DNA of 64,000 nucleotides from an uncultured Candidatus Saccharibacteria bacterium. GTDB lineage: Bacteria; Patescibacteriota; UBA1384; 2-12-FULL-50-11. Below the pieces are notes generated by a model. That model did not search any database. It was not told where the DNA came from and worked only from the letters and a program-made list of their open reading frames with translations. Made by a program: the position numbers and the translations under genes. Positions 16,001 to 30,023 of the stretch are shown piece by piece (the stretch's first letter is position 1; each line of letters opens with the position of its first letter). The stretch is taken from contig CAYHNZ010000001.1 of the NCBI GenBank assembly GCA_964358205.1, positions 3,168 to 67,167 of the forward strand, in the 5' to 3' direction.

Positions 16001-19000
16001 GGGACATTGCAATATACCGGCACGACCTCGTCGACTGACCGCAGCATTACGACGACCGCGGCGATCACTTTAAATCTTGATATTACAAATCCTGCCGCAG
16101 CGCTAACCATTTCGGGGACGACGACTGTAACGACTGCGCCGTTCACGAAAGTTGGACCAGGGACACTGATCTTGTCGGGCACGAACGGTCATACGGGGCT
16201 AACCACGGTCCTGGCTGGGACGCTAAAAGAGGGCGTCGCCAGTGCACTCTCAACGGGAGCGTTAACTGTTACGAACGGGACATTCGATCTCAATAACTTC
16301 TCGGATAGTGTCGGGACAACCACTCTTACTAACGGTGGGCAGATGATCGATTCCGGCGGTACGACCGCGGTTTTGACTAGTACAGCAACTTACGCATTGC
16401 AAAGCGGTAAGATCAGCGCCCGACTGGGTAGCGCCGTTGCTGCCGGTATCTCTAAAACGACAACGGATCGGGTTATTCTTTCCGGCGACAATACGTTTAC
16501 CAGCACCTCTATAGCCTTGAGTGCCGGCGCCCTGAACCTTCAAAGCAACAACGCGCTCGGCGCTGCCGGTACGACCTTAACGACCACCATTACCTCGGGC
16601 GCGGCTCTGGAAACCCAAAATAATATTACGATTCCCAGCACCAAGCCAATTACGGCTAACTTGGGCGGCGTTAACAACAGTGGCGCAATTAGGAATATCG
16701 CCGATGCCAATACGATTCAAGCCAACATCGTGCTTGGTGTGACCAACACTCGGGTGAACTCGGACAGCGGCACCCTCACCTTCCCAACCGTCTCCGGTAA
16801 CACCAACAATTTAATTGTGGGCGGCGCCGGCAATACGACAGTTACCGGTATTATTAGCACTACATCTGGCACCTTAACCAAAGACGGTGCAGGCACATTG
16901 ACGCTTCAAGGCAATAACAGTTATACGGGTCTGACAACGATCAGCGCCGGTGTCGTGAATGTTCGGCATGCCGCAGGTCTTGGCACAATTGCGGCCGGTA
17001 CCTCCGTCGCCGCTGGCGCGGCCCTGCAAATACAAGGGATCGTCACCGTTGGCGCCGAAACGTTAACGCTCAATGGCACGGGCGTTGCCAGCGACGGAGC
17101 GTTAAGAAATATCACCAACAATAATACTTATCAGGGTAATATTACTCTCAATACTACCAGTTCGATTGGCTCCGATGCCAACACGCTCACTCTAAGCGGA
17201 ACAATAACTGGCGGTGCATCCATTGGCTTAACTAAAGTTGGTGCCGGCGAGGTGTCAGCTTCCAATACGGTCACGGTTGGTGGCGACCTAACGATTTCAG
17301 CGGGAACCTTAACTGCCTCCAGCAACACCATTACGGTTAGCGGTAACTGGTCTAATAGCGGCACATTTACGGCCGGCGCGAGTACGGTGGTATTAAATGG
17401 GGGCGCCACCCAGACTTTATCCGGAACCATGACCACCACCAGCGCATTTAACAACCTAACCGTGACTAACGCCTTCGGTACCAACGCCTCGGACTGCGAA
17501 CGAACCAGCTTTGTGGCCTCGATCGATTTCGATGCTGCGGCCACGGTGACAACAAACCTAGTCTTTACGACCGCCAGTACCAGGGTGGAATTCAACAGCG
17601 GGTCAACCTATGCTTTTACCAACATCAACTGGAACGGTCAGGCATCAGGTACGAAAATTTACTTCCGCAACTCGGACGCTTCCGGTACCTGGTTATTAAA
17701 AGTCACCGGCACCCAAACTGCGGTCTCGTTTATTAATGTCTCCCGCTCCGACGCATCGGTCGTCGGCGGTAACGCCATTGTCGCCAACGACGGCACCAAC
17801 ACCGATTGCACCAATAACACCAACTGGACATTCCCGAGTAGCAATACTGCCCCAAATGCGCCAACTAGCTTGGCCCAAAAGCGCACAACCGATGTGGCGC
17901 TCGCCACCGGTGATTGGACCAATGAAACATCCGTTAAGTTTACGGCAACCGCCAGCGACACCGATAATCCCGACACACTGAAGCTCTGTATTGAAGCAAT
18001 TGCGATTGCCAGCAATTTTACTAACACCGACACCGGCTGTGGAAGCTTAACCGCCTATAGCGGTACACCAATCACTGTTACCGTCACCTTGTCTGGCCTA
18101 GTTACCAGTACCGAGTACAAATGGCAGGCGAGAATCAAGGACACGGCTGATGCCGCTTCGGCCTGGAGCGATTACGCCGCCAATGGGTCTAGTCGCGATT
18201 TTGGTGTTGATACAACCGCTTGTACGACCGCCACCGTTTACGATGGCAGTTCCGCTGGTGTAGATGCCGACTTTAACGATAGCTCGCTAACGGCGCTATC
18301 AGGCAACTGGGATGCTTTTACTTGTACTGTTTCGGGTCTGCAGAAGTATGAGTACTCAATCGGCGTGACCGCCGGCGGTACGACAATCAAGGGCTGGACC
18401 GATAACTCGACGACAGCATCGGTCACCGCCGGTAGCTTGATTTTACACACTAATGAGCTCTATTTCATTAACATCCGAGCGACCGACAACGCCAGCAACG
18501 TTTCGTCAGTGGTGTCGTCTAATGGCCAACAGGTTTTACCGTCGTTAAGTTTTACTATGGGCAGTAACACGATTAGCTTTACTAATTTAAATAGCACCAA
18601 CAACCGACTCGACACTAAAACCGTTAGTCTAACCACCAGCACTAATGCTTTCGGCGGTTATATTATTCGCCAGTACGCCGGTGGCTTACTAACCGACGGT
18701 ACCAATACCATACCGATGTTCTCGGCTGGCTCGTACGCCGCACCAGCTTCGTGGGGGACAGGGTTTTGCTCGGGTACAACTTGTGGTTACGGCTATACAT
18801 CTAACGACACAACTATCCAAGGCAGCAACTTATTTAGTAGTGGCACGCTTTATGCCCCCTTTAGCCAAACTCCTTCTGGCGATATTGTGGCCGATCACAC
18901 CGCCGCCGTTGACGGTACGAGCGGTGCAGTTAGCAACGAGTCGTTCACTATTACCCATAAAGTCGCCGTAACCGCTCTACAAGCGGCCAAAACCTATCAA

Positions 19001-19036
19001 GCAACAGTCTACTTGATTGTCACTGGCACTTTTTAA
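7043..19036 (+). CDS. Giant (3,997 aa) cell-surface repeat protein: N-terminal TM/signal anchor, >30 autotransporter-associated beta-strand (PATR-like) repeats 'TxTGxTxVNxGTLxLG', C-terminal Ig/FN3-like region
   Basis: Single uninterrupted ORF; repeated units such as 'NTYTGLTTVNAGTLTYGV', 'NSYTGLTTISAGVVNV', 'NPYTGATTINTGTLTL' throughout. Confidence 0.85.
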   Translation: MAPQIQRARRRFDGVYQATRGKILCEYNLHPVRFFSVFFSVVVLLGVIAFFKPVSASIGLHLDQRELQNKYPNFWTLAEQKKISPSSDKYFIGDEPVVPSSSPVVLAVASDSTNIEVTADSAHEDIGQNPNQFTKSVSVEQVERGTKISQKETDGQAGLYRIKAQDRVTGAVTAEETIAWGVLAFNPDYSIYPTDTSATLAMAVLDDRGKMICDASLTIEITDPNGNKKILSTENELVLVNNACLIYGPTSEPDYIANYQTGTEGDYQVTIKARVGSGVRTLHDKFSVKDNQPFYLQRVGATRTFPNAEYVYKLNFQPKVDGQYQLTETVPAEFIISDTSAKITEVGDVKKLVWQVDAKAKADQTLMFGYKGPLKSPHLYTFGPAEVSYVADARSSSITQSQQSASRKLQAESWTEPRAWQIASDAPSTVNWDGSSSANWSDGANWSTNAIPQAGDNLVFPAGAANKSNSNDLGENMLFNSITFNDSGYTLAGNTIIVGQGLNGITDAVVSGGNTISLNLRVDVTRWLTVTNSGETLTISGTIAGVGGITKEGQGKLVLSGANTYGGVTKINGGDISARSNTALGTIATGTEVVGEAALELQGTIAIGREPLTLRGYGESSGGALKNVSDSNSFDGLITIAGIAEIQSDSGTLTLNGGVTGAAIPLVLDGAGNITFAKAPVANTSGLITKNGAGTLTYNFPNTYTGLTTVNAGTLTYGVDNAILSGGITVNGGTVDIATFSDMVGTVTLGTLAGGSGIITGSTGVLSSASYVVYVGTISAIIAGDGGTLAKSTPGTVTLTRPNLFSGATTVTVGTLKIQDSLALGVIDGITTVSAGATLQVDGTGLSIPEFITISGVGLLNQGVIWNSTGSNTVTGLVTMAAASTIKADVSTTITYATNGFTGAFGLTVNGDGDTTISGPIATTSGTLSKNGPGTLTLTAFNPYTGATTINTGTLTLNSNGAITMSASIAINSNGKLIADNSSVVTDRIGDAVAVSMNGGSWDFYGSSSTNTLATAGTLTMTGGKNAITVFAGTGGYTIMRFASFSRTAGARGLFRGASLGATPAANVATILFTTAPTLLGDDGVAGTSAVSIMQGVFGDNSTSGTGTDMVTYGRGNNNGLRLLNGAGFSNEYTTNFLTTNANIKISSATAAITSQINSLILDSGASITNPGSAQTITFMSGNILNLEASGSIAGANTTLAAGAVEFSISTPQSLTISSLITTTGGLTKGGTGTLTFSTAKTYTGLTSVNDGTLIYGINDAISSGAVTVNDATLDIATFTDTVGAVVVQGGTITGTSGVLTATSYDLRAATINAILAGSGTLTVVNTNERTDAVTTLSRDNTFTGSIALTSGVLKLGGAGGGSNTPLGTTAAGITMTSGAMLDLNGYTLVTSEAISATGTGIALQGAIINSSASTVTYNGVITQTAAARIGANYGKIIIGTGGITGTFNLTLGGFGDIDVTSAITISTGTITKDGFGIYTPSSASSTYTGLTTVSAGTLKLGVSGGATNTPLGTNAGGVTVTAGATLDMNGFSLATVADTLTINGTGSGTGDFAAGALVNSSGTGVTYVGAIVLGSATTVKSNSGTITLTTGGITGAFALTLGGTASSTISGVIATAAGTIIKIDTGTWTLSSVNTYTGAATIYQGTIKNGIAAAAGGGPLGTAAGATTIFSGGVLDMNGFSLSALAEGLTINGFGIESGGAMVNNSGSGVTYLGTRALGSDTRTTNSGAGLLTLSGIQSGAFESRYGGAGNITISVAIAATASSFWKDGAGTVILSAANGHTGVTTVAAGTLQYGILNTLAAGAVVVNGGTLNIVSFSDTVGAVTLVDGMISGTTGILTATGYTFESGTISGIIAGAVAVNKYTAGTVVISGVETISSTLTIHAGTIEISGSGSAVGVTAITINLGATLTLDNSTTAVASRLLDTIVLTMNGGNFNYKGNTASTAAETIGQLLFSSGHNTVTVTPGAGGSTTLTAATNPGINRTAGATVLFRGTSLGSTPAANISTLKFTTAPIVVGGGGGTGTTTISIIKGAYGDNSLTGTGTDMVTHNVGNTNGLRLLNGPGFSGEYAANLGTASANVKLTGDTAATTTNTNSIVLNGGGVTNASVTLPIAATALAGNILIATAHNIAGANTVLGITTFELNVLANAASTVSATVGTATTGSLTLSGSGNVTFSAANPYTGTTFINNATYTYGVANAISSGAATVIGGTYNLNGNSDTIGALNATGGTIATGAGTLTLGGTVTTVANANVTSIITGNLALGANRIFNVGDGLVDNDLVVSATVTGAFTVTKSTGTGVLVLSATDSTYSGSTTISTGTFRFGSGGSGANGPLGTTAAATIISSGASLDLNGYSLATAEGLTISGTGVGANGAIMNTSSAAATYQGLIILGAAATITSNYGDITISNTGSMTGTGFALTLRGAGNGSIATQVNTSTGGSRVKNGLGTWTVSGDGGYTGVTTITLGVLKLGAAGGATNTPLGTTGTNTTIASGAMLDLNGFTLGTAEPLSIQGTGIANAGAITTSSGIATSYSGAITIATASRITNYGNGTFSLSGAIAGGAVALTTVNAPGTITQTSASVWSGTTSSLTKEGWGTTILAGQNSITGSMTVSSGTLQLGANGGAANTPTGTIAGGVIVSAGAVFDLSTFVLGGASTWEPLTLNGSGIKNGGALISAATSGNNFGVVTYGSSARVVNNASGTITFVGAPTGTFNYVFGGTGPITITGVMPAVAITITKYDSGILLLNGAHLSTGLIRINGGTVRYGVANAILVNAVTIAGGTLDINGQTDAVGAIILMSGTITNGGAAATLTGTAYTFYGGAITAVLAGTAIAMAKNTGATLTINQALTNTGTLTINAGTVQYLASNVVANTAAVIVAGGTLDIGAQTDTVAAVTLTSGAITGSTGILTGTSYAVASGTISAILAGAVTLAKTTAGTVTLSGVNTYSGVTTISGGVLSVGTIGNGGVAGNLGAAPAAASNIVSNTGTGTLQYTGTTSSTDRSITTTAAITLNLDITNPAAALTISGTTTVTTAPFTKVGPGTLILSGTNGHTGLTTVLAGTLKEGVASALSTGALTVTNGTFDLNNFSDSVGTTTLTNGGQMIDSGGTTAVLTSTATYALQSGKISARLGSAVAAGISKTTTDRVILSGDNTFTSTSIALSAGALNLQSNNALGAAGTTLTTTITSGAALETQNNITIPSTKPITANLGGVNNSGAIRNIADANTIQANIVLGVTNTRVNSDSGTLTFPTVSGNTNNLIVGGAGNTTVTGIISTTSGTLTKDGAGTLTLQGNNSYTGLTTISAGVVNVRHAAGLGTIAAGTSVAAGAALQIQGIVTVGAETLTLNGTGVASDGALRNITNNNTYQGNITLNTTSSIGSDANTLTLSGTITGGASIGLTKVGAGEVSASNTVTVGGDLTISAGTLTASSNTITVSGNWSNSGTFTAGASTVVLNGGATQTLSGTMTTTSAFNNLTVTNAFGTNASDCERTSFVASIDFDAAATVTTNLVFTTASTRVEFNSGSTYAFTNINWNGQASGTKIYFRNSDASGTWLLKVTGTQTAVSFINVSRSDASVVGGNAIVANDGTNTDCTNNTNWTFPSSNTAPNAPTSLAQKRTTDVALATGDWTNETSVKFTATASDTDNPDTLKLCIEAIAIASNFTNTDTGCGSLTAYSGTPITVTVTLSGLVTSTEYKWQARIKDTADAASAWSDYAANGSSRDFGVDTTACTTATVYDGSSAGVDADFNDSSLTALSGNWDAFTCTVSGLQKYEYSIGVTAGGTTIKGWTDNSTTASVTAGSLILHTNELYFINIRATDNASNVSSVVSSNGQQVLPSLSFTMGSNTISFTNLNSTNNRLDTKTVSLTTSTNAFGGYIIRQYAGGLLTDGTNTIPMFSAGSYAAPASWGTGFCSGTTCGYGYTSNDTTIQGSNLFSSGTLYAPFSQTPSGDIVADHTAAVDGTSGAVSNESFTITHKVAVTALQAAKTYQATVYLIVTGTF

Positions 19037-19109
19037 TAACCAACGAAGCGACGCAAATCAACTCTAGCTTGACAGTTGCCAAAGAAAATAATTACAGTAA
19101 AGTTACAGC

Positions 19110-20207
19110 ATGAGGGGAACAACGCTGCGACGTTTCGGAATATATTTATCAATCACAGTTCTTTTAGTCGCCTTTAGCCCAATTCAGGATACGGCTTTGG
19201 CGGCGGCCATTAGTACTGCTTCCGACACAATGTCCACCATCAAGCAGAGCGTTAACGCTGACCACACCATTCAGTTCATCACTCCTACTGGTGTCGCGGC
19301 CGGCGAAACTATTACTTACGCCTTCCCAACCGGTTTTACCCTGCTGGCCGAAGCGGTTAATAACTTTGACTTTGCCGTCAGTGCCGCTGGCTCGTGTGCC
19401 AGCTTTACCGATAAAGCTCTGGCCCTAACCGCTTCTGGTGCAACCTGGGGGTTAGACGTCACCAGCCAAACCATCACCGTTACATCGGGAACAGATACCA
19501 TCGCTGCTGGTCGTTGCGTGCAGCTAGAAGCTGGCACAGTTGCCACCGACGGCACCACTGGTGCGGCTAACACCATTGTCAACCAGACGGCGGTCCAAAA
19601 TACCACCGACGCCAAAATAGTAATTGATGGTAGTATGGTCGATACCGGTACGATTGCCGTCGAAATTGTGACCGACAACACCTTGGCGGTCACTGCCACC
19701 GTTGACCCAAGCATTACTTGTGCCGTCGATGGTAACATCGCCCAATTTGGGACGTTTGTGACCAGCACGGTTGACACCGCCAGTCAAACGCCGATCTGGA
19801 CCATTAGCACTAACGCCAACACTGGCTACAACTTGTCGGTTAAATCGGCCGGCAATGCCACCAACGCTGGACTATATAGTTCCTCTGCCGCCTATGTAAT
19901 CAAGTCGGCTGACGGTTCTGAAAACTCAACGGCTGACTTAAGCGTGGCCGCGACGATCGGTTATGGTATGCAGGCAAGCAAAGCGAACGGCGACGCCGGC
20001 TCCGCCGCGTCCACTATTTCATCGCCTTACACGTCAACTAGCGATACGGTTGGTCGCTTACAGCTCACTGCGCAAACCGTCTCGTCAGCCGGTGGGCCAG
20101 TTTCCAACGCCACCGTTACCACGACACTTAAAGCCAAAGTCACTGGTTTAGTGCCACCCGGCGCCTACGTTGATACCCTTACTTACGTTTGCAGCGGAAT
20201 CTATTAA
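19110..20207 (+). CDS. Secreted Thr/Ala/Ser-rich beta-rich protein of unknown function (signal peptide)
   Basis: N-terminal signal 'LSITVLLVAFSPIQDTALAAA'; composition typical of surface beta-sandwich proteins. Confidence 0.5.
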   Translation: MRGTTLRRFGIYLSITVLLVAFSPIQDTALAAAISTASDTMSTIKQSVNADHTIQFITPTGVAAGETITYAFPTGFTLLAEAVNNFDFAVSAAGSCASFTDKALALTASGATWGLDVTSQTITVTSGTDTIAAGRCVQLEAGTVATDGTTGAANTIVNQTAVQNTTDAKIVIDGSMVDTGTIAVEIVTDNTLAVTATVDPSITCAVDGNIAQFGTFVTSTVDTASQTPIWTISTNANTGYNLSVKSAGNATNAGLYSSSAAYVIKSADGSENSTADLSVAATIGYGMQASKANGDAGSAASTISSPYTSTSDTVGRLQLTAQTVSSAGGPVSNATVTTTLKAKVTGLVPPGAYVDTLTYVCSGIY

Positions 20208-20211
20208 TCTG

Positions 20212-21222
20212 ATGAGGCAGCGTCTCCACCTGCTTACCAAACTCTTTTTGGCTCTTTTGGTGGGTGGCGTTATTTTTATTTCGGCTACTCGGGCACAAAC
20301 TGACACCGGCATTACTTTCGGTATAACGATTGCGCCAGTTATAGACGAATTTAGCTCTGAATCGGGAACAACAACGTCGCGAACAATCAAGATTACTAAT
20401 CCCATTCAGGAGGTGGTCACCCTTTATCCACAAGCGCTTAATATTTACTCCGATAACGACAAGGGTCAGCCAAAATTTTACAGCCTGAACGAACGTAACT
20501 CGCGCTACTCTGTTTCCGACTGGATTACATTCTCCAAGCCGTTAATAAGGATTGCGCCAGGTGAAGTTGAAGAATTTGCCTACAAGCTAACCGTCCCCAA
20601 GGATGCCGAGCCCGGTGGCCATTACGGTGCGGTGCTGTTTTCAACCAAACCGCCAGTTGTCCAAACACCAGACCCTAAAAATAGTCAAGTCAGCGTGGTT
20701 GGTCTAATCGGCACGCTCGTACTGCACACGGTTCCTGGAGCGGTCGTTCAGAAAGCAACTCTAACTAATTACTCTGCGCCAACAATTTTAATCCGGGCAC
20801 CAGCCAATTTTTCACTAACTTTCCAGAACACCGGTAATGTTCATATTAAACCAGTTGGCGAGATAAAGGTTCGCAATCTTTTTGGGGAAGTAACGACCAG
20901 CCTGAAGGTCAACGACGGCGGCGGTAGCGTTCTGCCGGAAAGCACTCGAAAATATGAAACCAGCTGGAAATTTAACTGGCAGCAGATCGGTAAATTTACC
21001 GCCTCTGCCGTCGTTACTTTTGGTACACCCGAGCAGCAAATAATCTCTGTTAGAACCTTTTACATCATTCCAGTTTGGTCGCTAGTGTTATCTGGCCTGA
21101 TTATATTAATAATTATTTGGTTGATTTTCCGGCGCCAACGCCGAGCGAAAACTATGCCACCGCCACCAACCTCACCACCGTCACCACCGGAACCAAAACG
21201 ACCAGGATTTGCGATGCGCTAA
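20212..21222 (+). CDS. Cell-surface protein with signal peptide, C-terminal TM anchor followed by RRQRR and Pro-rich tail; architecture resembles DUF916/DUF3324-type surface proteins
   Basis: 'LFLALLVGGVIFISATRAQT' signal; C-terminal 'IIPVWSLVLSGLIILIIIWLIFRRQRRAKTMPPPPTSPPSPPEP'; start set at internal ATG 20212. Confidence 0.45.
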   Translation: MRQRLHLLTKLFLALLVGGVIFISATRAQTDTGITFGITIAPVIDEFSSESGTTTSRTIKITNPIQEVVTLYPQALNIYSDNDKGQPKFYSLNERNSRYSVSDWITFSKPLIRIAPGEVEEFAYKLTVPKDAEPGGHYGAVLFSTKPPVVQTPDPKNSQVSVVGLIGTLVLHTVPGAVVQKATLTNYSAPTILIRAPANFSLTFQNTGNVHIKPVGEIKVRNLFGEVTTSLKVNDGGGSVLPESTRKYETSWKFNWQQIGKFTASAVVTFGTPEQQIISVRTFYIIPVWSLVLSGLIILIIIWLIFRRQRRAKTMPPPPTSPPSPPEPKRPGFAMR

Positions 21223-21612
21223 TTAAATAAACCAACGGCTAACGATTCTCCAGATCCGTTTTAATAGAGCGGGAATTGGTCGCTCGTCGCGTTGATAAAC
21301 CAAGCCGGGTTTGGAAAAATTAAGACTGGACTTGATTGACTGATATTGCTCGATAATTGATTGCGAATAAGGAACTTCTTTACCGTCGACTTCGCCCAAC
21401 ACTACTCGAGGTCGAGTTTCCTCGGCGGTATTGCTAATGATTTTTTGGATAGTCAAATTTTGATCGACCACAATTATTCGCTGGGGCAGAACTGTTGCAA
21501 CTACTGTGATTGTGCTTGAGGTGGTTTCGGTCGCCAACAGTAGTGCGTTAGCCAGTAGCACCGTCAATAAGGTGATGAGGCCGTAGCTAATTAGGTTGAG
21601 ACTCCTTTTCAT
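21223..21612 (-). CDS. Small signal-anchored protein, unknown function
   Basis: ORF with N-terminal hydrophobic segment 'LISYGLITLLTVLLANALLLA'. Confidence 0.35.
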   Translation of the reverse strand: MKRSLNLISYGLITLLTVLLANALLLATETTSSTITVVATVLPQRIIVVDQNLTIQKIISNTAEETRPRVVLGEVDGKEVPYSQSIIEQYQSIKSSLNFSKPGLVYQRDERPIPALLKRIWRIVSRWFI

Positions 21613-21614
21613 AG

Positions 21615-22061
21615 CTAAAATCTCACCACCTTAGCGTACACCAAATACCCGCTCGTGGAGTCATTTGGAAAGAATGGAAACATAATATAGAACCGATGAT
21701 CGATAAAGAGGCGATACGGCCGTAAGCGTTTTAACGACTGCTCGGGACTCTCATTGAGCACGCCAAGTGAAGACGCTCGTGAGATGCCAATGAAATTTGG
21801 TTGGGGTAAATCCTGACCGTTGCTGTAAGAAACCGTCAGGTTATCTATCTGCTGATAATACAGTTTAAATTGCTTGGCTATCGTGGCTATCTTAGCCGAA
21901 TCACCTTCAGTGAAAGCGGTAAAAATCTCTCTATTGCCTATAAGTTTTTGATACCGAGAATTAGCGCGCTCGCTGGCCAAGAACCAACTACCGACAAGTA
22001 AAAGCAGAAAAATAGTACCCAATAAAACCCACCGATCACGAATTGATCGTTTCTTCGTCAT
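21615..22061 (-). CDS. Membrane-anchored protein, unknown function
   Basis: ORF with N-terminal TM 'WVLLGTIFLLLLVGSWFLA'; 26-nt overlap with upstream gene. Confidence 0.35.
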   Translation of the reverse strand: MTKKRSIRDRWVLLGTIFLLLLVGSWFLASERANSRYQKLIGNREIFTAFTEGDSAKIATIAKQFKLYYQQIDNLTVSYSNGQDLPQPNFIGISRASSLGVLNESPEQSLKRLRPYRLFIDHRFYIMFPFFPNDSTSGYLVYAKVVRF

Positions 22062-23073
22062 GTTTGCGGATTACCCAGTAGATAACGGCAATGGCCAGGA
22101 TTGTTAACAACATTGAGCGGGTGCCGTTGCCGGTATTGATTCGATTCAGAGATGCGTCAAGCAGTTGCAACTCCTTGGTAGCTTCACTCTTTGGTAGATA
22201 GTAAATAATAAAAACGCCGCCACTATTGCCCAAATCAACTCGACTGGCCTCTACAAATGTTTCAGTCCCTTCGAAATTGATTTCTTCATCACGGAAGGTT
22301 TGGGCGCCGGCTATCAGCGCCGCGACCGCTCGATCCTCCTTAATATTAGTAGTTTTTGAGCGGACCCCATTGTTATCAAAGAGTATGTTGCCGTCGATAT
22401 CCGTTACAACAGATTTAAATGTTGCGTAGTCACTTTTTAGGGCGGCCGCTTGGAAATGATCATTGAGGGCGCTTAAACGGACGGCACTACAAACGATTGC
22501 TTGCAAATCTTGACCCTTTAAGAATGGGGCGCAATAATTGATTGACGCCGCGCCGTCCTTGAGAGTGTAGTAAACTTTACTAGCCGACCCTCTTTTCGTT
22601 TCGATTATATTTTTATAATACGGCTGACTAGAGGCGTTCGTCCCCAACAGCTGTTTTAGGGGGTCACTATCAAGATTTACCGCGATCACTACGCCAGTTT
22701 TATCTAGCACAAACAGCCCACTCCCGATCCCAGTCACGTCATGTTGTTGGTCGATAATTTTCGCAAGCGCCACTTTGTCGCCGCCGATCACGGCCGTCAC
22801 TGCCGGTCCGTAGTTAGTTAGACGAGAGGTGATATTGTAGACTTCGTTGAAGTAGTCGCTGACTACGGATACACTACCAGCGTGAAGAATATCCAATTCG
22901 GCCCAATATTTTTTCTCAAAGGCCTGTAAGTAATGAGTTTTAATTTTCTGACCGGTGTAACTATTATTGAGATATGTAGAAAAACCGAAAATAATAACCG
23001 CTACTAAGACCACCCTCATAATTATCCGGTGGCGTTTTAGTAGTTTTTTCCCCTTCCAAACCATGATATTCAT
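22036..23073 (-). CDS. Membrane protein with extracytoplasmic sensor-like (Cache-like) domain between two TM helices
   Basis: TM 'VVLVAVIIFGFSTYL' ... periplasmic ~280 aa ... C-terminal TM 'MLLTILAIAVIYWVI'; ORF-track start 23229 rejected because the extension overlaps tRNA-like sequence. Confidence 0.4.
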   Translation of the reverse strand: MNIMVWKGKKLLKRHRIIMRVVLVAVIIFGFSTYLNNSYTGQKIKTHYLQAFEKKYWAELDILHAGSVSVVSDYFNEVYNITSRLTNYGPAVTAVIGGDKVALAKIIDQQHDVTGIGSGLFVLDKTGVVIAVNLDSDPLKQLLGTNASSQPYYKNIIETKRGSASKVYYTLKDGAASINYCAPFLKGQDLQAIVCSAVRLSALNDHFQAAALKSDYATFKSVVTDIDGNILFDNNGVRSKTTNIKEDRAVAALIAGAQTFRDEEINFEGTETFVEASRVDLGNSGGVFIIYYLPKSEATKELQLLDASLNRINTGNGTRSMLLTILAIAVIYWVIRKHDEETINS

Positions 23074-23165
23074 ATTCACTTTACCACATTGCCGGGTAGT
23101 ATTTTCCTCACCCAAGAGACGGGTAATTGACTCTGGTTTATGATAAAATTGCAGAAGTATTTTCG

Positions 23166-23217
23166 CTCCGGGATCGGCTAAGGGCAGGCCTGCAGAATCT
23201 GGATCTGCCAACCTTGG
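23166..23217 (+). other. tRNA-Gln(CUG)-like 5' fragment (acceptor 5', D arm, anticodon arm, variable loop and T-stem 5' strand; lacks T loop and 3' acceptor)
   Basis: 'CTCCGGGATCGGCTAAGGGCAGGCCTGCAGAATCTGGATCTGCCAACCTTGG' aligns to the full tRNA-Gln at 23281. Confidence 0.55.
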
Positions 23218-23245
23218 CCCGCCCCGCACTTTACAGTCGTTATGC

Positions 23246-23453
23246 TCCCGAGTCGTCTACTACGAACTGACACTTTCTGTTCCGGGATCGTCTAGCGGTA
23301 GGACTGCAGATTCTGGATCTGCCAACCTTGGTTCGAATCCAAGTCCCGGAACAAAGTGTGTCAGTGAGAAGCGAGTCCGCCAACAAGCGGACGACAATGG
23401 TAGGACGCTAGGTTCTGGTCCTAGTAACCGGGGTTCGAATCCCTGCTCGGGAA
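23246..23453 (+). other. Interrupted 'outer' tRNA-Gln(CUG)-like gene: 5' piece 23246-23259 (acceptor + D-stem + first D-loop nt) and 3' piece 23397-23453 (rest of D loop to acceptor), separated by a 137-nt insert that contains the complete tRNA-Gln
   Basis: TCCCGAG...CTCGGGA acceptor pairing; 3' piece has anticodon stem CTAGG/CCTAG, loop TTCTGGT (CUG), T arm CGGGG-TTCGAAT-CCCTG. Confidence 0.5.
23281..23351 (+). tRNA. tRNA-Gln (anticodon CUG), complete cloverleaf, no encoded CCA; flanked by 12-13-bp inverted repeats (CTGACACTTTCTG / CAAAGTGTGTCAG)
   Basis: TCCGGGA-TC-GTCT-AGCGGTA-GGAC-T-GCAGA-TTCTGGA-TCTGC-CAAC-CTTGG-TTCGAAT-CCAAG-TCCCGGA-A; close to E. coli tRNA-Gln. Confidence 0.85.
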
Positions 23454-23711
23454 CAGTTTAGGGTTGGTAACGATTGCCTCCTTTAACGATGAGCGTTGCT
23501 TCCTTTGCCAATCTTTTTGTGATGTACTACACTTAATGAAGGTACGATCAGGGAAATTAAATGTGGCAAATTGGCCTAATGACTCTTGCTCGGACAGCAA
23601 TTTTCAAGTAGAGTGTGACTTGCACGTTAGGTTATAGGCTGTTGCGGAGTTGAAAAGCAGAAAGGCTCTACTGCGGAGTGTTATTAGACTGGCTTGCCGG
23701 TATCGAACGCA

Positions 23712-24188
23712 CTACGATGAAGGAATGTCGCCCTTCCAACTCCACAATAGCTCATAACCCTTGAGATAATTCTCGTCTCGTACCCGAAGGCAAGTGACAA
23801 CGTAATTCATTTCTTCAATTACACCGTCCTCAAGGTCGGTCATTTTTGTTTCAATCGAGCAAAGGTACATAAATTTCCCAATCATTTTGAAGAAGCAAAG
23901 GCTGCCTCGCTTGCTGGTTTTATTAAGATAAACTCGATCAGGGAAACGCACAATTTTAGCCATATTTTTCAAAACTACATCAAACTCCTCGGCAGGCTTT
24001 CGGTCGTATAGGTGTTTGATAACTCTGGTTGTAATGTGCACTTTAGCGATAGTTAAATTGCAGCCTTGCCTGGTAGCGAGGGTCAAATTAGTAAGATAAA
24101 GAGTCAAATCGACAACAATGGCCTCTGGGTCTGTTCCTTCAATACGTTCCGAGAAGGCTTTATCGAGACTGCTTTCCATCTCGTCCAT
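23712..24188 (-). CDS. Hypothetical protein (158 aa)
   Basis: ORF only. Confidence 0.3.
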   Translation of the reverse strand: MDEMESSLDKAFSERIEGTDPEAIVVDLTLYLTNLTLATRQGCNLTIAKVHITTRVIKHLYDRKPAEEFDVVLKNMAKIVRFPDRVYLNKTSKRGSLCFFKMIGKFMYLCSIETKMTDLEDGVIEEMNYVVTCLRVRDENYLKGYELLWSWKGDIPSS

Positions 24189-24329
24189 AATAAGTCAAAA
24201 GTTGAACCCTGTCTTCAGGGCTGGCTGAAACAGCTCTAACTCCTGCTGAAACGAAAATTTGCTTCGTACGAGAAGCCAGCTCGGCGGATAGTTAGTACAA
24301 ATCAATGAAATTACGTTAAGATAAAAACT

Positions 24330-27300
24330 ATGATGGGTGGGAGGGGTTTTATAGGAGGGCGATTAATCCATTCCGGTCAAAAGTTTTGGCGAAGATTGTC
24401 GAGCCGACGGCGGGTAAATATTTTAATCGTAGTTGGAGTTTTAACACTGATTGTCGGTGGCTTACTTCGTAATGATTTTACGGCTCAAGAGATTGGCTCG
24501 AACGAAGCCCATAACGGTTTACCGCAACTACCGGCCGAACAAGGTGGACCGGTTATCTATCGCCCGAGCGAGAGCGTTTTGCCAGGCGAAACCCTTAACC
24601 TGACTGGCGGTAACTTTAGTGCCCAAGCGACGGCCGTGATCCAGTTGATCAACAACAACGGCACACGCGCCGCTAGCCGCGCCTTGACCCTCGAGAATCA
24701 GAGCGCTTTCTTAATTCAAGCCACCGTTCCTGCCGATTTGACACCCGGCCTCTGGTCGGTTTGGGTCGAACAAATTGTCGACAAGACATTGGTGGCCAGT
24801 AACGAAGTTTATATTAACGCCCCCGATGTGAGCCACTACCCAACTCCCGACGTTGCTCCGGGCGAGAGCCTTGCTATTTACGGTCGGAACCTCACAAAAG
24901 ATAAAAACGACGCTAACGGTTACCGGCAAAGTGCGGTGGTTTTCAAACATAATGGAACAAGCCTGACGGCATCGGTAACGGGTGGCGATTGGTTCCATTT
25001 GGTTGTCAAAGCCCCAGCGGGATTGCAACCGGGTACCGACTACGATGTCTATGTCTCGAATGGTTTGGGTGGTGAGCTAGGCTTGATTAAAGCCCAAAGC
25101 GATAAGCCGCTCAAAGTGGTGGCCGCCGGGACAGCCGATACCTTGGGACTTGGCGTCAACTGGGCTCGCAAACTGGATTTCGTCAACGATGCATCCCGAA
25201 CCTACAACGTTAAAACCGACCCGCGCCTTGCTCGTAAAGCCGTTGGTGACGGAGTAACCAACGATCGGCAAGCGATTCAAGAAGCCATTGACGCGGCCGC
25301 CGCTGGAGGTGGTGGAGTAGTCTACCTGCCGCAAAGTACCTACTACGTTAGTATTGGCACAAACGACACTATTGTTCTTCGTAGCAAGGTGGTTCTCAAG
25401 GGTGAAGGTACCGACAAGACGACGATTAAATACGGCGTGCGGGATGTGAAGGACTTAAGCTATTTCTTGCGTTTTCAGGATATCGATAATGGTGCTGGTG
25501 GTTTAGCCGGTATTACAAGTTTGACAATTACCAATATTAATCACGACAATAGTGATCCAAACTTAGATTTTGTCGGTGGCTCGGCTGGTATTAGTTTTGG
25601 TAACGCCGGTCAGACATTTATGACCAAAGTCAAATACGATATGGGCCCGCATGATTTCGTCGGAAGCGAGTACTCAAGCCAGCTACTAATTAGTGACTCG
25701 GAGATGACCAGCCTCTACAGCTGGATCGGCCCAGCTTTTCGTTTTTCTGGGAAAAAGCCAAATGCCGAGATGTCGGCCGAGCGGAGTGCAAACTCCGGTT
25801 ATTACAACCGATACAGCGGCAATACATTTACATACCTTAACGGCCGATTTTCTTTGTTTGAACAACAAGACTCGACTTTTGAAAATAATCAAGTCATTAG
25901 CGATGTCCGGGCCCAGCCGAACCTCCAAACCCATAACACATGTTGTAGCGGAGGCGTCACCTTTAATTTTAGTAACTTCACCGCCCTGATCGGCAATACC
26001 GTCAAGACCGTCAACGGTATCAATCGGTTCGGTGTAAACGACAGAGAAGCCTTTGTGACCGAGAACCCCCTCGAAGGCTTGTGGCATATGGGTAGCGTCA
26101 CCGACAGTACCGAAACCACCCTGACGGACAATACCCAACAGTGGGAAGATGTCATCAACGGTCGTTGGCCAACCTATAATAACGGCCTTAGTTTCGGCCA
26201 GCCGCATAAACGTGGTGACGCTGCATACAATGCTAGTACCAACACCAACGGTGACGACTGGGACGGTGATGTCCCGCTTAAGCCGGGTAGCCGGCTTCAG
26301 CCGTGGGACCCGATCAGCATTCAGCGTTTGGTGGTGGCGATTACCGATGGAACTGGGCAGGGACAGTGGCGTTACATTACGGCCAACACCCCCACCACCC
26401 TTACTATTGACCGACCCTGGGACTTAAAGCCAGACAGCACTAGCCAGTATAAAATTACCGTCCCGGTGACGATAGACGTGGTCATTGCCAAAAACACGAT
26501 TGAGAACGCTAACGCCGGAATTATCCTTTATGATGGGGGTATTCGAAACCTCATCGCTGACAACCGTGTCATTAATGCCGGCGAAGTGAGTATCTACGCT
26601 AAAGATATTCACAGCGGCTACAATCAACCCTCGTGCGATTTTATGGGGCGGATTATTGGCGATGACCCCTACTCGCCAACACGCGAATCTTTTCCTCGGG
26701 TGGAAAGCAATAACGTGCCGGCCGCTTTCCACGACTGTTATCGCCTCGGCTTAGCCTGGGATAACGAGATAGTCGACAACACCAACGAGAATACCAACGG
26801 CAATTACCCGGCCCAGTTCTACGTCATAAATAATAACTTTATTAACGGTAGCGACCATGACGAGCAGGATTATCTTACGGATGATTGCAACGGTGACGGT
26901 AAAGTTGATAGTGCTGACGCGGCTTGCAATAATGATTACCGCAAAAATCTTCGGGCACCTTTCCATAACAATTCCATGTTTAATACGGTCTTGCGAGACA
27001 ACAAAATCGTTGCCGGAGACAGATTGATGGACGGTAATTACTTATCTAAATTGCCAAATCGTTTTAATTATTTTAGTTTCGACTTCAGTTCCAAGGAACG
27101 TTACTACGTGTTGGCTGGTGGATCAGCTCAAGGACTACTCCAGGAGACTGATGCCGCCAACAAGGCCGTCATCGGGACGATCTTAGACAATAATACCATC
27201 AGTAATATGGGTAACGGTTCAGATGATCAACCTTATATTTTCTCGTTGGGTACGAGCCAAACTACGCTCAAAAGTCTCGGTCAACCTTCGACCGCCTGCT

Positions 27301-27896
27301 ACCGGATCAATCTCACCAAACCCCGTGGCGATCAATCGGCTGGAGGCCTAAATCTACTTTTCTTGGACGCGAATCGTCAAACCACAAACTACAAAACAAA
27401 CCAACAGTATGTAGCTAGTCTGGGTAGCGAGCAAACCGATGCCATCGGTCGAGCAACAATTAACGATGCCGCTGCCAATTTCCTTTTGCGCTATCGTTAC
27501 ACAATTACCCAACGAGCTGATAACGGGGTAATCTGGCAGCAACATCACTGGGTACCAATTGACGCCAACCAGAAGTACACCACTTGGTATAAAGTGCCTG
27601 GCTATCTAGGCAAGAGAACCAACGGGGTATTGGCGAGCGCTCTTTTTGACCCGACTAAATGCGGCACAACCGGCGTTCTCGATTTGACTAAAGCAATTTT
27701 GGGAGACTTCAATAATGATAATCAAATCACCGAGGCCGACATCACGGTCGCCATCCAAGCCTACAACGGCACGACGGATAGCGCCGCTGCAAAAACAGCC
27801 CTCGGTGCCTACAACGACCTTTTGACAATTAAGGATTTGGCGGCGCTTATCAAAACCTTCAACACCTCCTCTAAAGGCGATCCTAACTCGCCGTAA
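24330..27896 (+). CDS. Large secreted right-handed parallel beta-helix (pectate-lyase-fold) protein with Ca-binding DxDxDG-like loops and C-terminal dockerin-like module
   Basis: N-terminal TM/signal; beta-helix-style repeats; 'DDCNGDGKVDSADAA'; C-terminal 'LGDFNNDNQITEADITVAIQAY...AYNDLLTIKDLAALIK' dockerin-like duplicated segment. Confidence 0.6.
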   Translation: MMGGRGFIGGRLIHSGQKFWRRLSSRRRVNILIVVGVLTLIVGGLLRNDFTAQEIGSNEAHNGLPQLPAEQGGPVIYRPSESVLPGETLNLTGGNFSAQATAVIQLINNNGTRAASRALTLENQSAFLIQATVPADLTPGLWSVWVEQIVDKTLVASNEVYINAPDVSHYPTPDVAPGESLAIYGRNLTKDKNDANGYRQSAVVFKHNGTSLTASVTGGDWFHLVVKAPAGLQPGTDYDVYVSNGLGGELGLIKAQSDKPLKVVAAGTADTLGLGVNWARKLDFVNDASRTYNVKTDPRLARKAVGDGVTNDRQAIQEAIDAAAAGGGGVVYLPQSTYYVSIGTNDTIVLRSKVVLKGEGTDKTTIKYGVRDVKDLSYFLRFQDIDNGAGGLAGITSLTITNINHDNSDPNLDFVGGSAGISFGNAGQTFMTKVKYDMGPHDFVGSEYSSQLLISDSEMTSLYSWIGPAFRFSGKKPNAEMSAERSANSGYYNRYSGNTFTYLNGRFSLFEQQDSTFENNQVISDVRAQPNLQTHNTCCSGGVTFNFSNFTALIGNTVKTVNGINRFGVNDREAFVTENPLEGLWHMGSVTDSTETTLTDNTQQWEDVINGRWPTYNNGLSFGQPHKRGDAAYNASTNTNGDDWDGDVPLKPGSRLQPWDPISIQRLVVAITDGTGQGQWRYITANTPTTLTIDRPWDLKPDSTSQYKITVPVTIDVVIAKNTIENANAGIILYDGGIRNLIADNRVINAGEVSIYAKDIHSGYNQPSCDFMGRIIGDDPYSPTRESFPRVESNNVPAAFHDCYRLGLAWDNEIVDNTNENTNGNYPAQFYVINNNFINGSDHDEQDYLTDDCNGDGKVDSADAACNNDYRKNLRAPFHNNSMFNTVLRDNKIVAGDRLMDGNYLSKLPNRFNYFSFDFSSKERYYVLAGGSAQGLLQETDAANKAVIGTILDNNTISNMGNGSDDQPYIFSLGTSQTTLKSLGQPSTACYRINLTKPRGDQSAGGLNLLFLDANRQTTNYKTNQQYVASLGSEQTDAIGRATINDAAANFLLRYRYTITQRADNGVIWQQHHWVPIDANQKYTTWYKVPGYLGKRTNGVLASALFDPTKCGTTGVLDLTKAILGDFNNDNQITEADITVAIQAYNGTTDSAAAKTALGAYNDLLTIKDLAALIKTFNTSSKGDPNSP

Positions 27897-27898
27897 TA

Positions 27899-29113: not shown

Positions 29114-29612
29114 GATGTACAAAGTATTTTATGGCTTGGCAGTTTTGGTGGCGTTGGCGCTGATAATTATCGGCGTCGTGGCTAGTCGCAAAAACGATAG
29201 CCCAACCAACGGCGACTCCTTTAACACCGACCAACTCCAAGACGCTGAACAGAAAACCCCTTAGAGCCTGACAATAATCTAACCGCAACATCCAAACTAA
29301 TAACAATACTACTTGCCGGTTAAAACAGCCCCATTTCGTCTGCAAACCACTCATCCTTCCTCACCGTATCTCAATATGGTTCGTCGGTCTTCGTGGTTTT
29401 CGCTTGAAATGGGACAGTTTTTCCTCGGCATTAGATTTTGTCAGGCTCTTAAGGGCAAGGCTAAAGTTATAAGGCTAAAGTCTGAAGTAAGTGACAACTT
29501 TCAAGTATTAAGTAATTAGAACTTATTACCTATTACTTACTTTGAACGGACCGCCATCCGCCAGCGGCGGTGAAAAGCGAGGGATAGCGACAAATAACTA
29601 ATTGATCAGGTA

Positions 29613-30023
29613 TCAGGCGATTTGCTCAATATGTAGAGCGTGAGCTTGTTTTAGCAATTTCTTGTCATAGCTGAATAATTTAGAAATACCTGCGTCCAAC
29701 ATTAGCTGTAGTATCAATGCATCATTCACGCCGGTGTTTAATTTTTGGCCCAGGTCAGCATAGCGTAAAGCGAAATCAATACTCGGTGAAGGCTCAACTA
29801 GGATTAGGCCTGGTAGTTTAGCGATTCTTTCCACGGCCCTAACGATATCAGCATCGGGAGAGAGCTTTGATAAGACAAATAATACTTCCTCGATAATATG
29901 GTGCGAGGTTACAAGTTGCTCGTCATCATCTACCAGTTTTTGAAGGAGTCCAATGGTTTGGGAATGGTTATCAGATGTTTCATCTAAGTAATAGACCAGC
30001 ACATTAGCGTCTAGCAAAACCAT
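29613..30023 (-). CDS. vapC: PIN-domain ribonuclease toxin (VapC-like)
   Basis: 'MVLLDANVLVYYLDE...' with conserved acidic residues of PIN fold; 136 aa. Confidence 0.7.
   Translation of the reverse strand: MVLLDANVLVYYLDETSDNHSQTIGLLQKLVDDDEQLVTSHHIIEEVLFVLSKLSPDADIVRAVERIAKLPGLILVEPSPSIDFALRYADLGQKLNTGVNDALILQLMLDAGISKLFSYDKKLLKQAHALHIEQIA

What the first reader, a model, noticed from the sequence alone, without database searches (positions are those of the whole stretch)
23166..23453. Nested tRNA-Gln locus: a complete tRNA-Gln(CUG) with inverted-repeat flanks sits inside the D loop of a second, interrupted tRNA-Gln-like gene, with a third 5' fragment upstream
The sequence shows three tRNA-Gln(CUG)-like elements within 290 nt. 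A is a 5' two-thirds copy at 23166-23217. The outer gene has a 5' acceptor, D-stem and first D-loop nucleotide at 23246-23259, and the remainder at 23397-23453, with perfect acceptor pairing TCCCGAG/CTCGGGA. B is a canonical complete tRNA-Gln at 23281-23351. It is flanked by inverted repeats (CTGACACTTTCTG / CAAAGTGTGTCAG) and lies, with a 45-nt GC-hairpin motif, exactly after the first D-loop nucleotide of the outer gene. This could be an intron-like or MITE-like insertion that carries its own replacement tRNA. It could also be a split/permuted tRNA arrangement, or decayed duplications. tRNA introns at D-loop positions and tRNA-carrying miniature insertions are not standard bacterial features.
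Basis: seen in the sequence. Interest (0 to 1): 0.85.

Follow-up and report, generated by a model that had tools for sequence, protein, structure and literature searches.

The report
Working tRNA-Gln nested in broken copy
A working glutamine tRNA gene sits exactly inside the D loop of a second, split glutamine tRNA gene, next to the stump of a third; these are most likely scars of repeated gene replacement at a recombination hot spot in a groundwater Patescibacterium, not a new kind of intron.

Summary
B (23281-23351) is the only element that scores as a tRNA (Rfam 59 bits). Joining the outer pieces, 23246-23259 and 23397-23453, rebuilds a canonical tRNA-Gln(CUG). An uninterrupted copy of that gene exists in another metagenome (L136): 14/14 and 58/58 bases are identical, with one D-loop difference.

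A (23167-23217) is the 5' 51 nt of the tRNA-Gln type typical of this Berkelbacteria-like clade. It still lies behind the conserved TGnTAAAAT promoter, the only promoter-like site I found for the cluster.

Most likely B is the functional gene. O is a gene inactivated by a precise 137-nt insertion, and A is an older relic. Sister species carry a LAGLIDADG homing-endonuclease gene between a 24-nt tRNA-Gln stump and the full gene at the same locus. tRNA-Gln identity is also decoupled from GltX identity, which indicates recurrent allele replacement.

I found no evidence for a group I intron, a bulge-helix-bulge (BHB) intron, a MITE or an integrase scar. The insertion mechanism is unresolved. Whether O is ever matured is untested and unlikely. 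Interest is moderate.

The parts
23141..23149 (+). Extended -10 promoter TGATAAAAT, the only promoter-like site found for the whole cluster
   Evidence: Read directly. The same TGnTA(A/G)AAT box precedes tRNA-Gln in relatives L015, L133, L136, L138, L143, L144, L146 and L147 (alignment of leaders). No such box lies in 23218-23280. The consensus scan did not list the site because it has no -35 hexamer.
23167..23217 (+). A: 5' relic (positions 1-53) of the clade-typical tRNA-Gln(CUG), cut off at the start of the T loop
   Evidence: nhmmer tRNA-Gln profile E=7.9e-8, profile positions 2-51. Its D stem GGCT/GGCC and anticodon loop ATCTGGA match the full genes of L051, L133 and L144. A plus B's last 20 nt gives an ARAGORN tRNA-Gln.
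23218..23245 (+). 28-nt spacer between A and O5' (leader of O)
   Evidence: No tRNA similarity. It contains CACTTTACAGT, which resembles B's leader CACTTTCTGT (inspection).
23246..23259 (+). O5': first 14 nt of the split tRNA-Gln (acceptor strand TCCCGAG, U8 C9, D-stem strand GTCT, A14)
   Evidence: 14/14 identical to the intact gene in L136. Perfect complement of 23446-23452.
23260..23396 (+). 137-nt insert in O's D loop: 6-nt CTACGA, 15-nt leader, tRNA B, 45-nt trailer with hairpin
   Evidence: It is bounded by the two halves of O. Removing it restores the consensus GTCGTCTAATGGTAGGAC. It has no target duplication beyond 1 nt and no other copy in the window or in 1.09 Mb of fetched loci.
23266..23280 (+). 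Left arm of the leader/trailer inverted repeat (ACTGACACTTTCTGT)
   Evidence: the repeat finder I1. 12/15 complementary in register with the acceptor stem.
23281..23351 (+). B: complete tRNA-Gln(CUG), the presumed functional gene
   Evidence: ARAGORN. Rfam RF00005 59 bits over model positions 1-71. 92-93% identical to the tRNA-Gln of sister species L144, L146 and L051.
23351..23365 (+). Right arm of the inverted repeat (ACAAAGTGTGTCAGT), the start of B's trailer
   Evidence: The trailer is homologous to the native trailer of L138 (ACAACAAGTTCAGTGAGAACC versus ACAAAGTGTGTCAGTGAGAAGC).
23375..23392 (+). GC hairpin GTCCGC-CAACAA-GCGGAC, 4 nt before the right junction; no T run follows
   Evidence: It sits where L015's tRNA-Gln has a hairpin followed by a T run.
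23397..23453 (+). O3': positions 15-73 of the split tRNA-Gln(CUG)
   Evidence: nhmmer E=1e-14. Rfam partial match 22.4 bits, model positions 10-63. 23398-23455 is 58/58 identical to L136's intact gene.
23498..24245 (-). Neighbouring single-gene cassette (PBECR3-like 158-aa ORF, 23712-24188); part of the variable DNA beside the cluster, not part of the tRNA structure
   Evidence: 85% nt identity to L008, where it lies in a different context. Weak PBECR3 match. Homologues occur in unrelated contexts and never beside a tRNA.

Best explanation
The cluster is a layered record of tRNA-Gln(CUG) gene replacement at one chromosomal hot spot in a Berkelbacteria-like Patescibacterium.

Shown:
- A is the stump (positions 1-53) of the clade's native gene and still lies behind the conserved promoter.
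- O is a different tRNA-Gln allele. It is foreign to this clade and 71/72 identical to an intact gene in a more distant organism.
- O has been cut exactly between A14 and position 15 by a 137-nt piece of DNA.
- That piece is a complete, near-native tRNA-Gln (B) with 21 nt of leader and 45 nt of native-looking trailer.

Inferred:
- All pieces are transcribed as one precursor from the promoter upstream of A. Only B can be released as a tRNA by RNase P and 3' processing. A and O are non-functional passengers.
- The events happened at the DNA level through repair of breaks inside the resident tRNA-Gln gene. The repair used another tRNA-Gln allele as filler or donor (fragment capture, or homing-like gene conversion).
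- The 15-bp leader/trailer complementarity could be a by-product, for example fold-back synthesis that extended the acceptor-stem palindrome.
- A homing endonuclease of the kind found at the orthologous locus in sister species is a plausible source of such breaks. None is present here, and O's break point (14|15) differs from theirs (24|25).
For: - Only B passes as a tRNA.
- O5' plus O3' rebuild a canonical gene. An intact copy of it exists (L136, 61.3 bits).
- A carries the D stem and anticodon loop of full genes in L051, L133 and L144.
- The TGnTAAAAT promoter is conserved upstream of tRNA-Gln in relatives. In the window it occurs only upstream of A.
- The closest syntenic relative, L015, has one intact tRNA-Gln, no relics, and the opposite orientation. 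DNA between the tRNA and the cation ATPase gene is unrelated between the two genomes.
- L140 and L051 share this layout: promoter, 24-nt 5' stump, LAGLIDADG_3 ORF (43.5 bits), full tRNA-Gln.
- tRNA-Gln identity is decoupled from GltX identity. L140 versus L143 is 90% for GltX and 61% for the tRNA.
- Partial tRNA-Gln copies flank intact genes in other Patescibacteria: L035, L052, L059, L086 and L128 at E<0.01, and more with short exact 3'-end repeats.
- In L086 a full tRNA-Gln unit sits in the T loop of an outer copy. That outer copy carries stem-breaking substitutions, so it is decaying.
- A published analogue exists: the SegB homing endonuclease cuts inside phage tRNA genes and drives local duplication (PMC13096335).
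Against: - No nuclease, recombinase, transposase or reverse transcriptase was found among the window ORFs scanned (tblastn).
- The insertion is unusually clean: no loss, no duplication and no obvious junction microhomology. Ordinary break repair rarely gives that.
- O has no mutation relative to L136. The disruption is therefore very recent, or O arrived recently by transfer, or O is still under selection.
- The leader/trailer helix is far beyond random expectation (binomial about 1e-5). It recurs in 4 of 113 control loci, which could point to an RNA-level role.
- No expression data are available.
Confidence: 0.7

Rival explanations
1. Functional 'tRNA-as-intron' or split tRNA. The precursor folds with O's acceptor stem closed. 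RNase P and 3' processing release B. The two O halves stay together through the 7-bp acceptor stem and the 15-bp leader/trailer helix. They are then trimmed and ligated (RtcB-type) or work as a nicked tRNA.
For: The MFE and centroid folds keep O's acceptor stem, anticodon arm and T arm, with B as a separate domain (z=-4.6). The sequences flanking B are complementary, like the leader/trailer of archaeal split-tRNA halves (PMC3218864). The O halves carry no mutation relative to an intact orthologue.
Against: B already supplies the same anticodon, so O is redundant. There is no bulge-helix-bulge at the junctions. Bacteria are not known to have a splicing endonuclease. The analogous nested case, L086, has a decaying outer copy and no flanking helix. 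The closest relative has a plain single gene. Rfam does not accept O3'.
Confidence: 0.04
2. A miniature mobile element (MITE-like, or IS200/IS605-derived with hairpin ends) that carries a tRNA-Gln. A transposase acting in trans inserted it into a resident tRNA-Gln.
For: The insertion is precise and has no target duplication. There is an imperfect inverted repeat and a subterminal GC hairpin near the right end. Other Patescibacteria have tRNA-Gln units with flanking inverted repeats next to tRNA-Gln fragments (L059, L061, L128).
Against: There is a single copy in the window and none in 1.09 Mb of related loci or in viral contigs. The repeats lie 6 and 31 nt inside the insert ends. The two end structures are unrelated to each other. 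The trailer is homologous to native tRNA-Gln trailers. No transposase was found among the window ORFs scanned.
Confidence: 0.08
3. Scars of tyrosine- or serine-integrase islands that used tRNA-Gln as their attachment site. The partial tRNA copies would be attL/attR remnants left after the islands decayed.
For: The DNA downstream of the cluster is a variable island. Several other loci have exact repeats of the tRNA 3' end 50-200 nt downstream (L107, L130, L135, L145). Such repeats are the classical signature (general knowledge: Williams 2002).
Against: O3' is not a repeat of B's 3' part: the two are 72% identical and have different acceptor stems. A and O5' are 5' fragments lying upstream, which 3'-targeting integrases do not produce. 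No integrase was found in the window or beside the fragment-bearing loci examined. The insert has no direct repeats at its ends.
Confidence: 0.08
4. Tandem duplication of tRNA-Gln genes followed by random deletions, with no insertion event.
For: A and B form a 114-nt-period direct repeat. L128 and L113 look like decayed tandem copies.
Against: Two independent deletions would have to stop at exactly complementary positions of O. A, B and O are different alleles, not recent copies: 88% and about 70% identity, with a compensatory D-stem change.
Confidence: 0.06
5. Metagenome assembly chimera that joins tRNA-Gln loci of co-occurring species.
For: Several related Berkelbacteria occur in the same aquifer. 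Logan contigs break inside B at a 33-mer shared with the L140 species.
Against: Four independent assemblies from different samples give the identical 421 nt. The O5'/insert and insert/O3' junctions share no k-mer that could cause a false join.
Confidence: 0.02

Closest known systems
Free-standing homing-endonuclease cassettes at tRNA genes (phage T4/T6 SegB; here the LAGLIDADG ORF at the orthologous locus in L140 and L051)
   Same: Breaks occur inside tRNA genes. Repair duplicates or replaces tRNA sequence and leaves partial copies beside an intact gene. The locus behaves as a hot spot (PMC13096335).
   Different: No endonuclease gene is present in the window. The break point in O (14|15) is not the one seen in L140 and L051 (24|25). 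The inserted unit here is a whole tRNA gene, not an endonuclease ORF plus a partial 5' copy.
tRNA-targeting integrative elements that restore the target with their own tRNA segment (general knowledge: Williams 2002, sublocation classes)
   Same: Mobile DNA lands inside a tRNA gene and brings the sequence needed to keep a working copy. Displaced fragments of the old gene remain.
   Different: Those elements replace the 3' part, leave 3' fragments kilobases away and encode an integrase. Here the whole gene is supplied, a 5' and a 3' fragment lie 21 and 45 nt away, and no integrase is present.
Archaeal split tRNAs and tRNAs with non-canonical introns (Nanoarchaeum, Desulfurococcales, Thermoproteales; PMC3218864)
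   Same: The tRNA body is interrupted outside the anticodon loop. Complementary sequences flank the break and could hold the halves together. Mobile elements have been suggested as their origin.
   Different: Those depend on a bulge-helix-bulge motif and the archaeal splicing endonuclease. This locus is bacterial and has no such motif. The intervening sequence is itself a complete isoacceptor tRNA, which makes the outer gene dispensable.
Group I introns in Patescibacteria tRNA genes (PMC13011429)
   Same: Same phylum, and tRNA genes interrupted by extra sequence that standard annotation misses.
   Different: Those are self-splicing group I introns in anticodon loops of other tRNAs (the paper's abstract names Asn and Asp). 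The 137-nt insert has no group I or II signal and lies in the D loop.

Membership tests
Canonical bacterial tRNA gene (applies to B) | Full cloverleaf scoring above Rfam RF00005's gathering score, with an anticodon in a 7-nt loop | tested here: met
   59 bits against a gathering score of 29, model positions 1-71. ARAGORN tRNA-Gln(ctg).
Canonical bacterial tRNA gene (applies to O as it stands in the genome) | Contiguous cloverleaf above the gathering score | tested here: not met
   Only a partial match, 22.4 bits, model positions 10-63. It becomes a tRNA only after 23260-23396 is removed in silico.
Group I / group II tRNA intron | Match to an intron covariance model; conserved catalytic core | tested here: not met
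   No intron family matched at E<=10 in 23000-23700. At 137 nt, with 71 nt of that being a tRNA, the insert is too short for either ribozyme (general knowledge).
Archaeal-type BHB intron / split tRNA | Bulge-helix-bulge: two 3-nt bulges holding the splice sites, separated by a 4-bp helix | tested here: not met
   In the MFE fold the 5' junction lies in a 5-nt hairpin loop, and the centroid leaves the 3' junction region unpaired. Inspection found only CTAC/GTAG with a 2-nt bulge and no second flanking helix.
Archaeal-type BHB intron / split tRNA | Splicing endonuclease and RNA ligase encoded by the organism | not testable with these tools
   Only 64 kb of the genome is available. Nothing of the kind was found among the ORFs scanned.
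MITE | Terminal inverted repeats at the element ends | tested here: not met
   The repeat arms are 23266-23280 and 23351-23365, which is 6 nt and 31 nt inside the insert ends.
MITE | Target-site duplication | tested here: not met
   The junctions are GTCTA|CTACG and GACA|ATGG, with at most 1 nt (A) shared. O is restored exactly.
MITE | Multiple dispersed copies | tested here: not met
   One copy in the window. None in 1.09 Mb of fetched loci or in viral contigs. The whole genome was not available.
Integrase-mediated island at a tRNA gene | Direct repeat of the tRNA 3' segment (attL/attR) flanking the inserted DNA | tested here: not met
   B's 3' part and O3' are 72% identical and have different acceptor and T stems. 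The insert ends share no direct repeat.
Integrase-mediated island at a tRNA gene | Integrase gene next to the tRNA | tested here: not met
   No recombinase domain in the ORFs from 19110 to 33254.
Homing-endonuclease cassette with partial target duplication | Endonuclease ORF between the displaced fragment and the restored gene | tested here: not met
   Present in L140 and L051. tblastn with both proteins finds nothing in the window. The spaces between the fragments are 28, 21 and 45 nt.
IS200/IS605-type hairpin-ended element | Similar subterminal hairpins at both ends, a specific 4-5-nt target 5' of the left end, and TnpA | tested here: inconclusive
   The precise insertion without duplication fits. 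The two end structures are unrelated to each other, no TnpA was found among the ORFs scanned, and a single copy does not allow the target rule to be tested.

The most novel reading that the evidence does not exclude
The locus is a bacterial 'tRNA inside a tRNA'. One precursor is cut by RNase P and 3' processing to release B. This leaves two halves of O held together by the 15-bp leader/trailer helix and the acceptor stem. The halves are then joined, or used as a nicked molecule. The embedded tRNA would be acting as the excisable intervening sequence of a split tRNA.
Probability: 0.04. Interest if true: 0.9.

Novelty: new variant of a known kind. Interest (0 to 1): 0.45.

Why it matters
If the relic reading is right, the locus is a compact fossil record. 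It shows that tRNA-Gln genes in Berkelbacteria and other Patescibacteria are overwritten again and again by other alleles, in some species together with a homing-endonuclease gene. That is unexpected for genes usually treated as stable markers. It affects tRNA annotation, the use of tRNAs as integration-site landmarks, and ideas about how mobile DNA keeps an essential target working: it brings a replacement copy instead of splicing out. It also offers a concrete test case. One RNA-seq junction read would decide whether any bacterial outer tRNA is ever matured. If it were, this would be the first split or nested tRNA in Bacteria.

Tried and rejected
- Synteny through the downstream 158-aa gene failed. 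Its homologues sit in unrelated contexts and never next to a tRNA. This also removes the idea that the PBECR3-like nuclease is functionally coupled to the tRNA-Gln cluster.
- The single genome-contig scan used too broad a pattern. I reused these loci as a control set.
- Viral contig scans for the B and O alleles, the trailer/hairpin, the whole allele family and the LAGLIDADG protein found nothing relevant. The one hit, L150, is a high-GC phage with an ordinary tRNA-Gln.
- Integrase adjacency was checked in the window and next to fragment-bearing loci and not found. What turned up instead was a LEM-3-like GIY-YIG nuclease (Pfam) and, by reading the sequences, what look like a restriction-modification methylase and specificity subunit.
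- The hairpin is not a repeated element.
- My leader/trailer measure on non-Gln tRNAs was mis-registered with ARAGORN coordinates, so I do not use it. The fragment counts from that call are used only qualitatively.
- The Logan contigs that end inside B looked like a population variant at first. The break is explained by a 33-mer shared with a co-occurring species.

Full report
**1. What is in the sequence**

The window is chromosomal DNA of a Patescibacterium related to Candidatus Berkelbacteria.
- It encodes L19, GltX, HisRS, IleRS and a sigma factor.
- Its GltX is about 73-80% identical over the full length (82-83% in local alignments) to MAG proteins, several named Berkelbacteria.
- Contigs carrying identical proteins come from Hainich groundwater (well H43), 0.1/0.2 µm filter fractions.

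Between 23141 and 23453 on the + strand lie, in order:
- an extended -10 box, TGATAAAAT (23141-23149);
- A (23167-23217);
- 28 nt of spacer;
- O5' (23246-23259);
- a 137-nt insert (23260-23396) made of CTACGA, a 15-nt leader, tRNA B (23281-23351) and a 45-nt trailer with one GC hairpin (23375-23392);
- O3' (23397-23453).

**2. Check of the observation**

- Only B is called by ARAGORN and by Rfam at gathering level (59 bits).
- With permissive thresholds Rfam adds a partial match to O3' (22.4 bits, model positions 10-63). It reports no intron family.
- A profile built from 118 tRNA-Gln(CUG) genes (117 Patescibacteria and other bacterial loci plus B) detects A (E=7.9e-8, positions 2-51) and O3' (E=1e-14, positions 14-70).
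- Joining 23259 to 23397 gives a 72-nt ARAGORN tRNA-Gln(ctg) with a perfect 7-bp acceptor stem and D loop AATGGTA. A plus B's last 20 nt does the same.
- The flanks of B are 12/15 complementary in register with its acceptor stem, or 13/15 counting G-U. This makes a 22-bp helix.
- The same 421 nt occur at 100% identity in four assemblies from different samples. The arrangement is therefore real DNA, not a chimera.

**3. The empty site**

A scan of JGI metagenomes for the B and O anticodon/T-arm sequences returned five loci.

L136 carries an uninterrupted gene, TCCCGAGTCGTCTAGTGGTAGGACGCTAGG…CTCGGGAA.
- It equals window 23246-23259 (14/14), then one base (G instead of A23397), then 23398-23455 (58/58).
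- It scores 61.3 bits in Rfam.

O5' and O3' are thus the two halves of a genuine tRNA-Gln allele, split with no base lost or gained.

L136's GltX C-terminus is only 60% identical to the window's. O is only 66-73% identical to the tRNA-Gln genes of the window's own clade. So O is a foreign allele here.

L136 also has a short A-like stump (TCCGGGGTCGTTTAGGGCGA) between its promoter and the O-type gene. An O-type gene placed behind a truncated resident gene therefore occurs in two lineages.

**4. The native state of the locus**

Sister species (L140, L143, L147-L149) share the order L19, gltX, tRNA-Gln, (PIN/antitoxin), cation ATPase, Band_7, NrtR, tRNA-Glu, sigma-70.

The window keeps this frame with two additions:
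- a 16-kb block with a 3997-aa PATR-repeat protein between gltX and tRNA-Gln;
- three extra genes between tRNA-Gln and PIN.

The conserved TGnTAAAAT box precedes tRNA-Gln in relatives. In the window it precedes A only, and B's 21-nt leader has no such box. A's D stem (GGCT/GGCC) and anticodon loop (ATCTGGA) are those of the full genes of L051, L133 and L144. A is therefore the stump of the original resident gene. B must be read from A's promoter as part of one precursor (inference).

The closest syntenic relative, L015, has 66-86% protein identity over window 7043-23073. It carries a single intact tRNA-Gln, no relics, the opposite orientation, and unrelated DNA up to the ATPase gene. Both lineages have rearranged this spot since they diverged.

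**5. A hot spot with a homing endonuclease**

L140 (same aquifer) and L051 share this layout:
- the promoter;
- the stump TCCGGTGATCGTCTAGTGGTAGGA, positions 1-24 with a 1-nt insertion, 24/24 identical in the two;
- a LAGLIDADG_3 ORF (Pfam 43.5 bits);
- 4 nt after its stop, a full tRNA-Gln whose D stem is GGCT/GGCC rather than the stump's GTCT/GGA.

The two endonucleases are only 36% identical to each other.

Across seven relatives, tRNA-Gln identity does not follow GltX identity. L140 versus L143 is 90% for GltX and 61% for the tRNA. The alleles are mosaics of shared arms. For example, L135 has O's anticodon arm with B's acceptor and T arms.

This is what recurrent break-induced allele replacement would produce. 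SegB, a phage homing endonuclease, is known to cut inside tRNA genes and to drive local duplications by recombination (PMC13096335).

The window itself has no endonuclease homologue. O's break point is ten bases from that of the L140/L051 stump. The link is therefore an analogy, not a demonstration.

**6. The phenomenon is wider**

Among 117 tRNA-Gln(CUG) loci from GTDB genomes, five have extra partial copies at E<0.01 (L035, L052, L059, L086, L128). Several more have exact repeats of the last 14-20 nt within 200 nt (L061, L107, L125, L130, also L135 and L145).

L086 is a second nested case. A full tRNA-Gln with its leader and terminator lies in the T loop of an outer copy. The outer pieces carry stem-breaking substitutions, so the outer gene is decaying.

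Leader/trailer helices of at least 11/15 occur in 4 of 113 control loci. Three of these also have tRNA-Gln fragments just downstream.

tRNA-Ala (L113) and tRNA-Thr (L025) show the same layout of a 5' copy upstream and a 3' copy downstream.

**7. What it is not**

- Not a group I or II intron. PMC13011429 describes the known Patescibacteria tRNA introns, all group I, in anticodon loops.
- Not a BHB intron (inspection).
- Not a MITE: single copy, no target duplication, repeats not terminal.
- Not an integrase scar: no att-type direct repeats and no integrase.
- Not a phage-borne cassette in the collections searched.
- The neighbouring PBECR3-like gene is an independent single-gene cassette.

**8. 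Best reading and its limits**

B is the working tRNA-Gln(CUG). O is a recently inactivated foreign allele. A is the stump of the native gene. The cluster records at least two successive replacements at a break-prone locus.

The steps that are shown are the identities of A, B and O, the exact junction, the empty site, the promoter position, and the turnover and endonuclease in relatives.

The steps that are inferred are co-transcription, the non-function of O, and break repair or fragment capture as the mechanism.

Unexplained points:
- the unusually clean junctions;
- the origin of the 15-bp leader/trailer complementarity, given that the trailer is homologous to native trailers (L138) while the leader is not;
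- the absence of any mutation in O.

These keep a small probability (about 4%) for an RNA-level function of the outer gene. Only expression data can settle that.

Noticed in passing
L140:11503-12311 and L051:2092-2931: A LAGLIDADG_3 homing-endonuclease ORF lies between a 24-nt tRNA-Gln 5' stump and a complete tRNA-Gln directly downstream of gltX. The stump is identical in both species, while the two endonucleases are only 36% identical.
   Followed up: partly
window 23498-24245 (ORF 23712-24188, - strand); L008, L009, L014: A 158-aa PBECR3-like (BECR-fold nuclease) gene behaves as a single-gene cassette. It is 85% identical in nucleotides to L008, where it sits next to ParB, a large serine recombinase and restriction genes. 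Other homologues lie between prfA and rpmE or beside rpsG. None lies next to a tRNA.
   Followed up: partly
window 7043-23073 versus L140, L143, L147: A 16-kb block lies between gltX and tRNA-Gln only in the window and in L015. It holds a 3997-aa PATR-repeat protein, a WxL-interacting-like protein and small membrane proteins. Sister species have gltX directly followed by tRNA-Gln.
   Followed up: partly
L035 (about 330 nt upstream of its tRNA-Gln) and L059 (about 50 nt downstream of its tRNA-Gln): Two different Patescibacteria carry the same two-hairpin GC motif, TCGCCTCnnCGGCGACCCGCCGnnnnGnCGGG. In both it is inserted between G22 and G23 of a tRNA-Gln fragment.
   Followed up: no
L086 (GTDB contig NZCD01000058.1), region around its tRNA-Gln: This is a second nested case. 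A full tRNA-Gln with leader and terminator lies inside the T loop of an outer tRNA-Gln copy, with a CG overlap at the junction. The outer copy is also interrupted near position 27 and carries stem-breaking substitutions.
   Followed up: partly
L113 (tRNA-Ala) and L025 (tRNA-Thr): An exact 19-nt copy of the tRNA 5' end lies 200-260 nt upstream of the intact gene, and an exact 13-19-nt copy of the 3' end lies 90-150 nt downstream. GC-rich hairpins lie in between. Relics are therefore not confined to tRNA-Gln.
   Followed up: no
L145, L135/L137, L107, L130: GC-rich inserts of about 45-180 nt are followed by a repeat of the last 14-20 nt of tRNA-Gln. L107 has three such repeats in a row.
   Followed up: no
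L015:9716-9787: The closest syntenic relative has its single tRNA-Gln, with the homologous promoter, inverted relative to the flanking genes. The gene is a mosaic of the A-type anticodon arm and the O-type T arm.
   Followed up: partly
window 23326 (ends of Logan contigs L003 and L006): Two independent Logan contigs stop at the same base inside B. B shares a 33-mer (CAACCTTGG…GGAACAAA) with the tRNA-Gln of an abundant co-occurring species (L140), which would branch a k=31 assembly graph.
   Followed up: yes
window 29091-30023 (- strand): A PIN-domain toxin and a small upstream ORF lie next to the cation ATPase gene. The pair is conserved as PIN/PhdYeFM in L147-L149 and marks the ancestral right-hand border of the variable region.
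   Followed up: no
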